Positions 36,922 to 37,434 of a stretch of 37,885 nt of DNA are shown here, piece by piece. Location: positions 1 through 37,885 of the IMG/VR virus record IMGVR_UViG_3300010350_001134, one strand, 5' to 3'. The notes under the pieces are model-generated. The model saw only the letters and a list, made by a program, of their open reading frames with translations, was not told where the DNA came from and did no database searches. Each line of letters begins with the position of its first letter. Position 1 is the first letter of the stretch. The stretch is from a virus. The position numbers and the translations under genes were made by a program.

Positions 36922-36984
36922 TCTGTAGTAAGATAAGAGTTACATCGTTGGTTATCATCGGTTCGAATCCGATACCAAGCTCCA
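36922..36984 (+). ncRNA. tRNA-like minihelix RNA. Hairpin-motif copy d (36925-36947) is followed by a 5-bp acceptor-like stem (ttggt/accaa), a T-arm atcgg-ttcgaat-ccgat, a discriminator, and an encoded CCA.
   Basis: Starts 5 nt after tRNA-Asp. ~60 nt long with no D-arm or anticodon arm. The 3' end ...accaagc-t-CCA looks like a tRNA terminus. Confidence 0.45.
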
Positions 36985-37027
36985 AAAGTTGCTTAGTATA
37001 ATACTCTTTTCGAATTTCTCAGATTAT

Positions 37028-37114
37028 GTTCCGGTTGCCTTAGTTGGTCGAAAGGTCCTGGCCGTTAACCAGACGCTGAAAAAGCCGCCGTGGGTTCGAA
37101 TCCTACCCGGAACG
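37028..37114 (+). tRNA. type II-like tRNA (87 nt). Anticodon loop CCGUUAA reads GTT, with C at position 33.
   Basis: Acceptor gttccgg/ccggaac is perfect. D-stem gcct/aggt. Anticodon stem ctgg/ccag. ~15-nt variable region. T-arm gtggg-ttcgaat-cctac. Confidence 0.45.
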
Positions 37115-37120
37115 CAAATT

Positions 37121-37193
37121 GGGGAGTTAGCTCAGCAGGTAGAGCGACGGACTGTTAATCCGCAGGTCGTGGGTTCGATCCCCTCACTCCCCG
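37121..37193 (+). tRNA. tRNA-Asn (anticodon GTT)
   Basis: Acceptor ggggagt/actcccc is perfect. D-arm tagctcagcaggtagagc. Anticodon stem cgga/tccg with loop cuGUUaa. T-arm gtggg-ttcgatc-ccctc (one mismatch). Confidence 0.8.
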
Positions 37194-37203
37194 CACTTCC
37201 TGG

Positions 37204-37283
37204 GTAAGTTTCCTTTTCGAGTCTAAAGGACATATATGACCCTGCTACCTCTGCAGATTCCTAAGGTTTGTCCACTTACCCAT
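37204..37283 (+). ncRNA. structured element closed by an 8-bp terminal stem (gggtaagt / acttaccc) with internal hairpins (tccttt-tcgagtct-aaagga; ctgc-tacctct-gcag)
   Basis: Long-range inverted repeat spanning ~80 nt between two tRNA genes. Confidence 0.3.
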
Positions 37284-37285
37284 TT

Positions 37286-37360
37286 GCCCTTTTAGCTCAG
37301 ATGGCCGAGAGCGCTTCCGTGACATGGAAGAGGTCGTAGATTCGAATTCTACAGAGGGCA
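37286..37360 (+). tRNA. tRNA-Val (anticodon GAC)
   Basis: Acceptor gcccttt/agagggc. D-arm tagctcagatggccgagagc. Anticodon stem cttcc/ggaag with loop guGACau. T-arm gtaga-ttcgaat-tctac. Confidence 0.8.
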
Positions 37361-37361
37361 C

Positions 37362-37434
37362 AAATTGTAGTGAAACAGCGAGTTACTTCGACTTCCATTC
37401 GACTAGACCAGGTTCAATTCCTGGACCCCCTGCC
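37362..37434 (+). ncRNA. tRNA-like minihelix RNA. Hairpin-motif copy e (37367-37390) is followed by a direct-repeat segment, a T-arm ccagg-ttcaatt-cctgg, an acceptor-like strand accccct, discriminator G, and an encoded CCA.
   Basis: Starts 2 nt after tRNA-Val. Same layout as 36922-36984. Confidence 0.45.

What the first reader, a model, noticed from the sequence alone, without database searches (positions are those of the whole stretch)
36922..37434. tRNA-like minihelix RNAs (motif hairpin + T-arm + short acceptor stem + encoded CCA) directly downstream of tRNA-Asp and tRNA-Val
At 36922-36984 and 37362-37434 the conserved hairpin is followed by a canonical T-arm (atcgg-ttcgaat-ccgat; ccagg-ttcaatt-cctgg). 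Next comes a 7-nt acceptor-like 3' strand, a discriminator, and CCA in the DNA. Most bona fide tRNAs here lack an encoded CCA. The elements are only ~60-70 nt and have no D-arm or anticodon arm. This matches tRNA-like domains of Y-RNA-like RNAs, tmRNA-like acceptor and T modules, or CCA-adding-enzyme and RNase P substrates, not decoding tRNAs. Similar non-cloverleaf T-arm elements sit at 36005-36091, 36220-36302 and 37560-37632.
Basis: seen in the sequence. Interest (0 to 1): 0.7.

Follow-up and report, generated by a model that had tools for sequence, protein, structure and literature searches.

The report
Phage Ro60-linked tRNA-mimic small RNAs
The two "minihelix" elements are parts of longer small RNAs in which a conserved two-strand clamp holds a rearranged (circularly permuted) tRNA look-alike, a family that travels with a phage Ro60/TROVE gene and so looks like a new branch of the bacterial Y RNAs.

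Summary
ARAGORN does not call them, and 20 of 21 called tRNAs here lack an encoded CCA. The anatomy was misread.

- **Acceptor strand.** The 3' strand pairs with a 5' strand lying downstream, across a loop that holds the CCA (A: 36974-80 with 36991-97; B: 37425-31 with 37445-51).
- **B.** A D arm follows at 37454-68. Joining 37469 to 37387 in silico gives a 74-nt cloverleaf that ARAGORN calls tRNA-Gly(UCC).
- **"Motif hairpin".** It is the 5' half of a clamp: P0, UAGUAA, P1, UACUUCG, [cargo], P1', AAUUUUCU, P0'. P0 and P1 covary in 108 sequences.
- **Copies.** The window has eight clamps, all on the + strand.
- **Linkage.** In 80 viral loci fetched with the window's Ro60-like TROVE protein, 51 carry clamps: 95 on the TROVE strand, none opposite, none in reversed controls.

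Best reading: Ro60-partner Y-RNA-like RNAs with a YrlA-type permuted tRNA mimic. They lack the YrlA GNCGAA motif and do not match Rfam YrlA, so I rate them a new variant of a known kind. Binding, RNase P cleavage and function are inferred.

The parts
36919..37025 (+). Element A, whole unit: clamp plus a tRNA 'top half' (T arm and closed acceptor hairpin; no D or anticodon arm). It starts 1-2 nt after tRNA-Asp and ends 2-3 nt before the next tRNA-like gene.
   Evidence: Regex and pairing scan; model R1 gives 42.0 bits, E 2.9e-8, although A was in the training set; homologue alignment A3.
36920..36925 (+). A: P0 5' strand AATCTG, pairs with 37020-37025 CAGATT.
   Evidence: Read from sequence; the helix covaries in A3 and in the family alignment A2; formed in the MFE fold.
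36926..36947 (+). A: conserved UAGUAA, then P1 5' strand GATAAGAGT, then conserved TACATCG.
   Evidence: Invariant TAGT and TAC.TCG columns and covarying P1 in A2.
36957..36973 (+). A: T arm ATCGG / TTCGAAT / CCGAT.
   Evidence: the helix is 100% paired with 2 double-sided changes in A3.
36974..36997 (+). A: closed acceptor hairpin. 3' strand ACCAAGC, 10-nt loop T-CCA-AAAGTT, 5' strand GCTTAGT (6 of 7 pairs, one A.C).
   Evidence: 4 of 7 pairs show double-sided changes among 5 homologues.
37003..37025 (+). A: clamp 3' half. P1 3' strand ACTCTTTTC, conserved GAATTTCT, P0 3' strand CAGATT.
37361..37500 (+). Element B, whole unit: clamp plus a complete circularly permuted tRNA-like body. It starts 1-2 nt after tRNA-Val.
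   Evidence: homologue alignment A4 is 94.7% paired against 85.1% shuffled, with 11 pairs changed on both sides; MFE z-score -2.66.
37362..37390 (+). B: clamp 5' half. P0 AAATTG, then TAGTGA, then P1 5' strand AACAGCGAGT, then TACTTCG.
37387..37403 (+). B: anticodon-arm-like hairpin TTCGA / CTTCCAT / TCGAC. The loop has a U33-like base, UCC and an A37-like base. It may equally be read as a YrlA-type V arm.
   Evidence: loop length varies among homologues.
37408..37424 (+). B: T arm CCAGG / TTCAATT / CCTGG.
37425..37451 (+). B: closed acceptor hairpin. 3' strand ACCCCCT, loop G-CCA-AATTTCCTT, 5' strand AGGGGGT (7 of 7 pairs).
   Evidence: Read from sequence; 3 of 7 pairs show double-sided changes in A4.
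37454..37468 (+). B: D arm GTGT / AACGGTT / GCAC, with GG in the loop.
37470..37500 (+). B: A-rich strand GAAAAAAC, then P1 3' strand (ACTC..GTT), then conserved AATTTTCT, then P0 3' strand CAATTT.
35999..36109 (+). Sister clamp with D, anticodon (GUU) and T arms in normal order and no acceptor stem.
   Evidence: 36.8 bits.
728..839 (+). Sister clamp with D, anticodon (UUG) and T arms in normal order.
   Evidence: 40.5 bits.
10955..11024 (+). Minimal clamp with a 17-nt cargo, about 560 nt upstream of the TROVE gene. By eye, a GC hairpin followed by a T run (about 11060-11095) lies downstream.
   Evidence: 40.8 bits; no Rfam family matches.
4661..4938 (+). Clamp with a 226-nt cargo that starts with a 23-nt exact copy of 23S rRNA (E. 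coli about 1908-1930).
30248..30798 (+). Two further clamps (30248-30559 and 30571-30798) with cargos of about 260 and 170 nt of unknown nature.
11587..13287 (+). Ro60-like TROVE and vWA protein (566 aa), the proposed protein partner.
   Evidence: Pfam TROVE E 3.8e-7; best solved relative is phage phiLo Ro60, 9KOP, E 2.2e-18; invariant DxSGSM in 14 homologues.

Best explanation
A and B are two of at least eight copies in this window of a phage small-RNA family built from two modules.

**Module 1, the clamp.** The 5' and 3' ends pair (P0). Next come a bulged U, two invariant pairs and an internal loop (UAGUAA opposite AAUUUUCU). Then a second helix (P1) and the conserved UAC(U/A)UCG. I infer that this clamp is the binding site for the phage's Ro60/TROVE protein, in the way the terminal bulged stem of Y RNAs binds Ro60.

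**Module 2, the cargo.** In A it is a tRNA top half: a T arm stacked on a 7-bp acceptor helix. In B it is a whole tRNA-like body in circularly permuted order: anticodon-like hairpin, T arm, acceptor helix closed by a loop, D arm. This is the 'circularly permuted tRNA with a closed acceptor stem' design of bacterial YrlA Y RNAs.

**Inferred steps**
- The RNAs are cut out of the tRNA-array transcript by the enzymes that trim the flanking tRNAs. Each unit starts 1-2 nt after the upstream tRNA and ends 2-3 nt before the next tRNA.
- RNase P probably cuts the acceptor loop just 5' of the downstream strand (before 36991 in A and 37445 in B). Exonucleases would then trim back to the encoded CCA. The product would be a two-piece RNA held together by the clamp, as shown experimentally for Mycobacterium smegmatis YrlA.
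- The tRNA-like face then recruits or titrates a tRNA-recognising factor onto Ro60. The factor's identity and the benefit to the phage are unknown.
For: **Clamp**
- In 108 distinct sequences, 81.7% of P0/P1 cells are paired against 53.8% in shuffles. The covariation score is 0.669 against 0.184, and 0.10-0.18 when partners are slid.
- A pair the selection did not require (columns 4 and 59) is paired in 99 of 108 sequences, with five pair types.
- Minimal 70-90-nt copies fold into P0, P1 and P2 on their own.

**Linkage to TROVE**
- 19 of the loci fetched with the DNA motif alone carry a TROVE homologue.
- In the reverse test, 51 of 80 loci fetched with the TROVE profile carry clamps: 95 on the TROVE strand, 0 on the other strand, 0 in reversed controls.
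- 29 of 79 clamps lie within 500 nt of the TROVE gene.
- Model R1 also finds a clamp 470-670 nt upstream of the TROVE gene in the uncultured huge phage LR745206 and in crAss-like phage cr111_1.

**Protein**
- It is Ro60-like: Pfam TROVE, phiLo Ro60 as closest solved structure, and an invariant DxSGSM motif that I read as the vWA MIDAS motif.

**Cargo**
- 30 of 147 family members have a T arm followed directly by a closed 7-bp hairpin. Ten of those loops begin N-CCA (about 0.4 expected by chance). Six are tetraloops, including GCAA, GTAA and TTCG.
- The acceptor closure covaries in homologues of A and of B.
- B de-permutes to a 74-nt cloverleaf.

**Precedent**
- YrlA RNAs lie near Ro60 on the same strand, with the order T arm, closed acceptor stem-loop, D arm.
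- M. smegmatis YrlA has a 7-bp acceptor stem, is cut by RNase P and gains CCA (PMC4201824; bioRxiv 10.1101/312249).
- Phage Ro60 proteins with Y-like RNAs are known (PMC12135203).
- A Ro60-like protein next to the tRNA genes of phage Bas63 has been suggested to use some of them as Y RNAs (PMC11482910).
Against: - No binding, expression or processing data exist for these RNAs.
- The motif thought to contact Ro60 in known Y RNAs (GGUCCGA, or GNCGAAN0-1G) is absent. It occurs in the 5' part of 1 of 147 clamps and in none of the five window clamps checked.
- Rfam YrlA does not match A or B even at E up to 10.
- 29 of the 80 TROVE loci showed no clamp with the strict pattern. Clamps A and B lie 24 kb from the TROVE gene.
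- The clamp alignment was assembled with a filter that demanded part of the pairing, so its inner pairs are biased.
- Homologue sets for A and B are small (5 and 4 sequences).
- Some cargos are complete, normal-order tRNAs with their own acceptor stem and CCA, such as the annotated tRNA-Gln of cr111_1. That fits a processing or carrier role as well as a mimic role.
Confidence: 0.68

Rival explanations
1. They are true circularly permuted (or split) tRNA genes. The clamp brings the two ends together so that they are cut and ligated, or simply held. RNase P and 3' trimming then open the acceptor loop, giving a working tRNA such as tRNA-Gly(UCC) from B.
For: - B de-permutes to a perfect 74-nt cloverleaf with the CCA in the right place.
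- 18 of 30 closed-acceptor family members are called tRNAs by ARAGORN after in-silico rotation. They carry varied anticodons, including Cys, Ser, Lys, Met and Thr.
- CCA is encoded in these loops far more often than chance (10 of 30), although the ordinary tRNAs of this genome do not encode it.
Against: - A has no D or anticodon arm, so it cannot decode.
- Sister units 728-839 and 35999-36109 have no acceptor stem at all.
- Six of 30 closed acceptors end in tetraloops that leave no room for a CCA end.
- The hairpin taken as the anticodon arm has loops of 5-11 nt in relatives.
- B's anticodon (UCC) and that of 35999-36109 (GUU) duplicate ordinary tRNAs in the same array.
- No RtcB-type ligase or splicing endonuclease turned up among the 30 larger ORFs of the window that were scanned.
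- The junction is not a bulge-helix-bulge motif.
- Other clamps carry non-tRNA cargo.
Confidence: 0.12
2. The clamp is a leader-trailer processing or stability helix, like the stems that flank rRNAs or phage RNase III sites. It releases or protects whatever lies inside. The TROVE gene is only a neighbour in the same genomic island.
For: - Cargo is very diverse: nothing, tRNA-like bodies in three arrangements, complete tRNAs, and 170-300-nt RNAs.
- The units abut tRNA ends precisely.
Against: - The non-helical nucleotides are highly conserved (UAGUAA, UACUUCG, AAUUUUCU invariant or nearly so in 108 sequences). That points to a specific protein site, not a generic duplex.
- Stand-alone minimal clamps with 15-35-nt cargos have nothing to release.
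- Co-occurrence with TROVE is strand-specific and peaks at the gene. It holds across TROVE proteins only 31-38% identical to the window's and in unrelated phage backbones (T4-like here, crAss-like cr111_1).
Confidence: 0.12
3. One reading: independent 60-70-nt minihelix RNAs made of a local hairpin, a T arm and a short acceptor stem formed with an upstream strand, ending in CCA.
For: In A, TTGGT (36948-52) can pair with ACCAA (36974-78), and the MFE fold of the short fragment uses this pairing.
Against: - That pairing is absent from 2 of 5 homologues and never covaries, whereas the downstream strand covaries.
- B has no upstream partner at all.
- The 'loop' of the local hairpin pairs with a downstream strand in 108 sequences.
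- The conserved 3' half of the clamp lies outside the proposed units.
Confidence: 0.04
4. They are decayed tRNA genes or recombination debris in a fast-evolving tRNA array.
For: The array holds several other aberrant tRNA-like sequences without clamps (36201-36316 and 37555-37632).
Against: - Compensatory changes occur in every helix.
- The same architecture occurs in about a hundred or more viral contigs.
- Reversed-sequence controls gave no hits.
Confidence: 0.02

Closest known systems
YrlA-type bacterial Y RNAs (Rfam RF02553; Chen et al. 2014, PMC4201824; YrlA tRNA-like domain structure 6CU1, bioRxiv 10.1101/312249)
   Same: - Encoded next to a Ro60/TROVE gene on the same strand.
- Modular: a terminal stem made from the 5' and 3' ends, plus a tRNA-like module in the order (V), T arm, closed acceptor stem-loop, D arm. 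[quoted passage not shown]
- M. smegmatis YrlA has a 7-bp acceptor stem, is cut by RNase P and ends in CCA.
- Y RNAs can be co-transcribed with tRNAs (D. radiodurans Yrn2, tRNA-Asp and Yrn1).
- The family includes smaller partners without a full tRNA module (YrlB).
   Different: - No GNCGAAN0-1G motif, and no match to RF02553.
- A different, strongly conserved clamp (UAGUAA, UACUUCG, AAUUUUCU).
- Eight or more copies per 38 kb, scattered in tRNA arrays.
- The breakpoint of the permutation differs. It lies at 26/27 in B, in the variable loop in others, and in place of the acceptor stem in normal-order units. In YrlA it lies in the anticodon loop.
- CCA is encoded, not added.
- Cargo also includes non-tRNA RNAs, among them a 23S rRNA fragment mimic.
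Y-like RNAs Yrl1 and Yrl2 of Thermus phage phiLo with phage Ro60 (PMC12135203)
   Same: - A phage-encoded Ro60 (the closest solved relative of the window's protein) with small RNAs encoded just upstream.
- A 5'-3' stem flanking an internal loop.
   Different: - The phiLo RNAs were picked out by a CGAA motif and have no described tRNA-like module.
- The proteins are only about 25% identical.
Circularly permuted tRNA genes of Cyanidioschyzon merolae, some green algae and Thermofilum (from memory: Soma et al. 2007; Chan et al. 2011)
   Same: - The 3' half lies upstream of the 5' half.
- The acceptor strands are joined by a short linker.
- De-permutation restores a canonical cloverleaf (B).
   Different: - Those genes rely on a bulge-helix-bulge motif, the archaeal/eukaryal splicing endonuclease and a circular intermediate. 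None of these is evident here.
- They have no link to Ro60.
- They are not known in bacteria or their viruses.
Two-piece (permuted) tmRNA (from memory: Keiler et al. 2000)
   Same: A T arm and an acceptor 3' strand with CCA are encoded upstream of the acceptor 5' strand. The intervening loop is removed.
   Different: - ARAGORN finds no tmRNA.
- No tag reading frame or pseudoknots were seen, although I did not search for them specifically.
- The units are only 108-140 nt long.

Membership tests
Y RNA (Ro60 partner RNA, broad sense) | Encoded close to a Ro60/TROVE gene, on the same strand | tested here: met
   95 clamps on the TROVE strand and 0 opposite in 80 TROVE loci; 29 of 79 lie within 500 nt of the gene. 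In the window, the minimal clamp lies 560 nt upstream of the gene. A and B lie 24 kb away on the same strand.
Y RNA (Ro60 partner RNA, broad sense) | Roughly 80-130 nt, with a long stem formed by the 5' and 3' ends and interrupted by a bulge or internal loop | tested here: met
   A is 107 nt and B is 140 nt. P0 and P1 covary. Minimal copies show a bulged U and a conserved internal loop.
Y RNA (Ro60 partner RNA, broad sense) | Conserved Ro60-contact motif in the 5' strand (GGUCCGA, or GNCGAAN0-1G) | tested here: not met
   Present in the 5' part of 1 of 147 clamps and in none of the five window clamps checked.
Y RNA (Ro60 partner RNA, broad sense) | Physically bound by Ro60 | not testable with these tools
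   Needs immunoprecipitation or gel-shift experiments.
YrlA (Rfam RF02553) | Scores at or above the family's gathering threshold (69 bits) | tested here: not met
   No YrlA match on A or B at E up to 10. The only YrlA hit (22.1 bits) spans two ordinary tRNAs.
YrlA (Rfam RF02553) | tRNA-like module in the order T arm, closed acceptor stem-loop, D arm | tested here: met
   Met in full by B. A has the T arm and closed acceptor but no D arm.
Circularly permuted tRNA gene | 3' half upstream of 5' half, and a canonical cloverleaf after de-permutation | tested here: met
   B gives ARAGORN tRNA-Gly(UCC), 74 nt. A is not called.
Circularly permuted tRNA gene | Bulge-helix-bulge motif at the junction of the termini, for the splicing endonuclease | tested here: not met
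   By inspection, the junction is P1 flanked by UAC and GAAAAAAC, not a 3-4-3 bulge-helix-bulge.
Circularly permuted tRNA gene | Circular intermediate and a mature, chargeable linear tRNA | not testable with these tools
   Needs RNA sequencing and an aminoacylation assay.
Canonical tRNA | Contiguous cloverleaf recognised by ARAGORN or Rfam RF00005 at its gathering score | tested here: not met
   ARAGORN reports nothing at A or B. RF00005 gives B 22.3 bits against a threshold of 29, and gives A nothing.
tmRNA (one- or two-piece) | tRNA-like domain plus tag reading frame, detectable by ARAGORN or Rfam | tested here: not met
   ARAGORN finds no tmRNA. Rfam tmRNA gives 9.9 bits on the T loop only.

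The most novel reading that the evidence does not exclude
The clamp-embedded units with a complete tRNA body, such as B and the variable-loop-permuted Cys, Ser, Lys, Met and Thr look-alikes in related contigs, are working tRNA genes in permuted or split form. RNase P and 3' trimming would open the CCA-containing acceptor loop. The clamp would either be removed by cut-and-ligate processing or stay on as an open-ended extra arm that Ro60 holds. The product would be chargeable, possibly two-piece, tRNA. This would be the first permuted or split tRNA genes in bacterial viruses, and it would give Ro60 a direct role in tRNA biogenesis or protection.
Probability: 0.12. Interest if true: 0.9.

Novelty: new variant of a known kind. 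Interest (0 to 1): 0.68.

Why it matters
Why bacterial Y RNAs carry a tRNA-like domain is an open question, and only a few Ro60-Y RNA pairs have been studied. This family would help in three ways.

- **Scale.** It offers hundreds of natural variants. More than 500 TROVE relatives were found in IMG/VR, and there are at least eight RNAs in this 38-kb window alone.
- **A natural swap experiment.** One conserved handle carries interchangeable cargo: a tRNA top half, whole permuted tRNA bodies, acceptor-less D/anticodon/T bodies, a 23S rRNA domain IV fragment, or almost nothing. This points to the translation apparatus, or enzymes that act on it, as the target.
- **Better annotation.** It gives a defined motif for annotating 'broken tRNAs' in phage tRNA arrays. 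It also explains why some annotated phage tRNAs, such as tRNA-Gln of crAss-like phage cr111_1, sit inside conserved flanks.

Phage Ro60 has recently been tied to hijacking of host PNPase (PMC12135203) and to countering a defence system (PMC11482910). These RNAs are therefore candidates for anti-defence or RNA-repair functions.

Tried and rejected
- **Known RNA family.** Rfam at gathering thresholds over the whole window found only tRNAs. E-value searches on the array, on the minimal clamp, on the long cargos and on B found nothing relevant.
- **Self-cleaving ribozyme flanks** (hammerhead, twister, hatchet, pistol). Considered because the conserved flanks surround the cargo. No Rfam ribozyme family matched, and the TROVE linkage explains the conservation better.
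- **Local hairpin GUAG/UUAC.** Never formed in MFE folds of minimal copies. Its 'loop' covaries with a downstream strand.
- **Upstream short acceptor stem in A.** Not conserved.
- **Acceptor 3' strand paired with the 3' end of the preceding tRNA.** Only 5 of 7 pairs for B and none for A, with wrong spacing (inspection).
- **tmRNA.** No support.
- **Model R1 with filters off.** It lost every long-cargo hit. With default filters it cannot span cargos longer than about 60 nt, so B and the clamps at 4661 and 30248 are not scored. B rests on the pattern scan and on homologue covariation.
- **Scan of one genome per bacterial species with the 5' motif.** This is not exhaustive.
- **GenBank phages.** DNA search matched only ordinary tRNAs. 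Protein search shows this TROVE subfamily is almost confined to uncultured contigs. Vibrio phage phiKT1024 shows no clamp with R1.
- **Vault hypothesis** (MVP, TROVE and a small RNA). The MVP homologue is present in only 4 of 96 TROVE loci, so it does not explain the family.
- **rRNA similarity of the cargos at 30248-30798.** No match in E. coli genomes.
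Full report
**1. What is at the coordinates**

- A has a T arm ATCGG/TTCGAAT/CCGAT (36957-36973), then ACCAAGC, T and CCA (36974-36984).
- B has CCAGG/TTCAATT/CCTGG (37408-37424), then ACCCCCT, G and CCA (37425-37435).
- ARAGORN finds 21 tRNAs in the window, and none at A or B.
- The Rfam tRNA model gives B 22.3 bits, below its threshold of 29, by deleting the D arm. It gives A nothing.
- Only one of the 21 called tRNAs has an encoded CCA. 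Most are followed by N73-C-A-A-A-T.

**2. The acceptor strand has a partner, but downstream**

- In B the exact complement AGGGGGT lies 13 nt after ACCCCCT (37445-51). A D arm follows: GTGT/AACGGTT/GCAC (37454-68).
- In A, GCTTAGT (36991-97) pairs with ACCAAGC in 6 of 7 positions, across the loop T-CCA-AAAGTT.
- I joined B's 5' part (37445-37469) to its 3' part (37387-37435). The result is 74 nt, and ARAGORN draws it as a clean tRNA-Gly(UCC) cloverleaf ending in G-CCA.
- A has no D or anticodon arm. It is a tRNA top half only.

**3. The 'motif hairpin' is half of a two-strand clamp**

A pattern scan of viral contigs with the 5' motif returned many loci with the same motif in front of T arms. 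Lining them up showed the architecture:
- P0 5' strand, then UAGU(A)A, then P1 5' strand, then UAC(U/A)UCG.
- The cargo.
- Often an A-rich run, then P1 3' strand, a 3-8-nt joiner, (A)AUUUUCU, and P0 3' strand.

Evidence for the helices:
- In a fixed-register alignment of 108 distinct sequences, P0 and P1 are 81.7% paired against 53.8% in shuffles. The covariation score is 0.669 against 0.184, and 0.10-0.18 with slid partners. All 18 pairs show double-sided changes.
- Caveat: my filter required at least 4 P0 pairs and 5 of 6 P1 pairs, so the inner pairs are biased.
- Pairs the filter did not require are still paired: columns 4 and 59 in 99 of 108 sequences, columns 3 and 60 in 79 of 108.
- The same filter found nothing in reversed sequences.
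- Copies with 15-35-nt cargos fold into P0, P1 and a small P2 hairpin on their own.
- No Rfam family matches the minimal clamp.

**4. Window inventory**

Eight clamps, all on the + strand:

| Clamp | Cargo |
|---|---|
| 728-839 | D, anticodon (UUG) and T arms; no acceptor stem |
| 4661-4938 | 226 nt |
| 10955-11024 | 17 nt |
| 30248-30559 | about 260 nt |
| 30571-30798 | about 170 nt |
| 35999-36109 | D, anticodon (GUU) and T arms |
| 36919-37025 | element A |
| 37361-37500 | element B |

- A ninth, degenerate copy sits at 35257-35341 (20 bits).
- A and B start 1-2 nt after tRNA-Asp and tRNA-Val. A ends 2-3 nt before the next tRNA-like gene.
- The ordinary tRNA-processing enzymes would therefore define most of these ends. 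This is inference.

**5. Linkage to a Ro60/TROVE gene**

- ORF 11587-13287 is Ro60-like. It matches Pfam TROVE, and its closest solved relative is Thermus phage phiLo Ro60 (9KOP, E 2.2e-18). Fourteen homologues share an invariant DxSGSM, which I read as the vWA MIDAS motif.
- Of 120 loci pulled by the DNA motif, most of them chance matches, 19 encode a homologue of this protein. These include most of the loci with convincing clamps.
- In the reverse direction, I fetched 80 viral loci with the TROVE profile. Fifty-one carry clamps: 95 on the TROVE strand, none on the other strand, none in reversed-sequence controls over 1.39 Mb.
- Clamp positions peak at the gene: 29 of 79 lie within 500 nt.
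- Model R1 also places a clamp 470-670 nt upstream of the TROVE gene in the uncultured huge phage LR745206 and in crAss-like phage cr111_1.
- Proximity to Ro60 on the same strand is the criterion by which bacterial Y RNAs were originally catalogued (PMC4201824).

**6. The cargo classes**

Among 147 distinct family members:

| Class | Count |
|---|---|
| Minimal cargo | 39 |
| T arm followed at once by a closed 7-bp hairpin | 30 |
| T arm without such a hairpin (mostly D-anticodon-T in normal order) | 41 |
| Long cargo without a T loop | 37 |

- The closed-acceptor class splits into three sub-types:
  - T arm and acceptor only, like A.
  - Hairpin, T arm, acceptor and D arm, like B.
  - T arm, acceptor, D arm and anticodon arm, broken in the variable loop.
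- After in-silico rotation ARAGORN of the 30 as tRNAs.
- Ten of 30 closing loops start N-CCA, against about 0.4 expected by chance. Six are tetraloops, including GCAA, GTAA and TTCG.
- The closure covaries in homologues of A (4 of 7 pairs changed on both sides) and of B (3 of 7).

**7. Interpretation**

The design closely matches published YrlA Y RNAs:
- They are encoded near Ro60 on the same strand.
- They have a terminal stem plus a tRNA mimic in the order T arm, closed acceptor stem-loop, D arm. [quoted passage not shown]
- M. smegmatis YrlA, which has a 7-bp acceptor stem, is cut by RNase P and ends in CCA (PMC4201824).

By analogy, I infer three things. The clamp binds the phage Ro60. A and B present a tRNA-like face. 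Copies with long N-CCA loops, including A and B, are opened by RNase P into two-piece RNAs with a CCA end.

Phage Ro60-Y RNA pairs are documented for phiLo, where they engage host PNPase (PMC12135203). A Ro60-like protein of phage Bas63, encoded next to tRNA genes, counters the Ppl defence system. Its authors guessed that some of those 'tRNAs' are Y RNAs (PMC11482910).

What is shown here is sequence, structure, covariation and linkage. Binding, cleavage and function are inferred.

**8. Why it is not simply YrlA**

- Rfam YrlA does not match A or B.
- The GNCGAAN0-1G motif is absent.
- The clamp has its own conserved loops.
- Copy number is high.
- The breakpoint of the permutation varies.
- Cargo is not limited to tRNA mimics.

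I therefore rate this a new variant of a known kind.

**9. Rivals**

- **Working permuted or split tRNA genes.** This is the most interesting reading not excluded (B's perfect cloverleaf, CCA enrichment). It cannot explain A, the acceptor-less units, the tetraloop-closed members or the non-tRNA cargos. No ligase or endonuclease was seen among the 30 ORFs scanned.
- **A generic processing helix.** This does not explain the invariant loop nucleotides, the cargo-less copies or the strand-specific TROVE linkage.
- **Pseudogenes.** Excluded by covariation.

**10. Limits**

- Homologue sets for A and B are small.
- Model R1 cannot span long cargos.
- 29 of 80 TROVE loci lacked a clamp under a strict pattern that misses variants such as UUCAUCG in cr111_1.
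- The host is not identified. TAnnTTTG boxes upstream of stand-alone clamps resemble the Bacteroidetes -7 promoter element as I recall it from the literature, and there is a TonB-dependent receptor gene. Both hint at a Bacteroidetes host. This is inference only.

Noticed in passing
window 4661-4938: The 226-nt cargo of this clamp begins with a 23-nt exact copy of 23S rRNA (E. coli about 1908-1930, by my reckoning the 3' half of helix 69 into helix 70). It aligns loosely onward to about position 2016, including CACGAATGGC. It looks like a shrunken mimic of 23S domain IV on a Ro60 handle. Rfam finds nothing here.
   Followed up: partly
window 6403-8949: An 848-aa ORF matches major vault protein domains (MVP_shoulder 4e-27, Vault_3 7e-13). 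It lies 2.6 kb upstream of the TROVE gene, so a vault-protein and TROVE pair sits in a T4-like phage. The MVP homologue occurs in only 4 of 96 TROVE loci, so it is a lineage peculiarity and not part of the clamp system.
   Followed up: partly
window 30248-30559 and 30571-30798: Two adjacent clamps carry cargos of about 260 and 170 nt. Neither has an Rfam match or any similarity to E. coli genomes. Their nature is unknown.
   Followed up: partly
window 35257-35341: A degenerate minimal clamp (UGGUAA in place of UAGUAA; model R1 20 bits) follows a TATATTTG box. Similar TAnnTTTG boxes precede the stand-alone clamps at about 10926 and 4613. This suggests Bacteroidetes-type promoters and independent transcription.
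   Followed up: no
One has an 8-bp anticodon stem with a 20-nt loop. They carry no clamp, so they form a separate class of odd tRNA-like genes. Further unassigned T-loop elements lie at about 600-720, 3984-4150 and 35801-35888.
   Followed up: partly
window 36113-36200 and 37028-37115: ARAGORN-nt tRNAs with long variable arms but Asp (GUC) and Asn (GUU) anticodons. That combination is unusual. Both score only 31-35 bits with the Rfam tRNA model.
   Followed up: no
window 35673-35756: This tRNA-like gene has a GAA (Phe) anticodon loop and an insertion in the D-loop region. ARAGORN mislabels it Leu(tag) at position 30.
   Followed up: no
window 10155-10227: A well-scoring tRNA (68.9 bits) has anticodon CUA, an amber suppressor that ARAGORN labels Pyl. 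It may point to TAG recoding in this phage.
   Followed up: no
L201 (crAss-like phage cr111_1, NC_055880) 6789-6910 and 7152-7223: The annotated tRNA-Gln (record 79185-79260) is a complete normal-order tRNA with encoded GCCA, nested inside a clamp variant (UUCAUCG). A minimal clamp also lies about 670 nt upstream of the phage's TROVE-like gp079. So some database 'phage tRNAs' belong to this family.
   Followed up: partly
window 37469-37494: In B the A-rich run AGAAAA (37469-74) is perfectly complementary to UUUUCU (37489-94) of the conserved 3' loop. The MFE fold prefers this hairpin to P1. It is not conserved in the homologue in L108, so it may be chance or an alternative conformer.
   Followed up: partly
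window 26012-26443, 18973-19848, 23429-24664, 26455-28413: The gene context includes peptidyl-tRNA hydrolase PTH2, NAD synthase, a nicotinate phosphoribosyltransferase and a TonB-dependent receptor. T4 markers are also present (gp30.3, dCMP deaminase).
   Followed up: no
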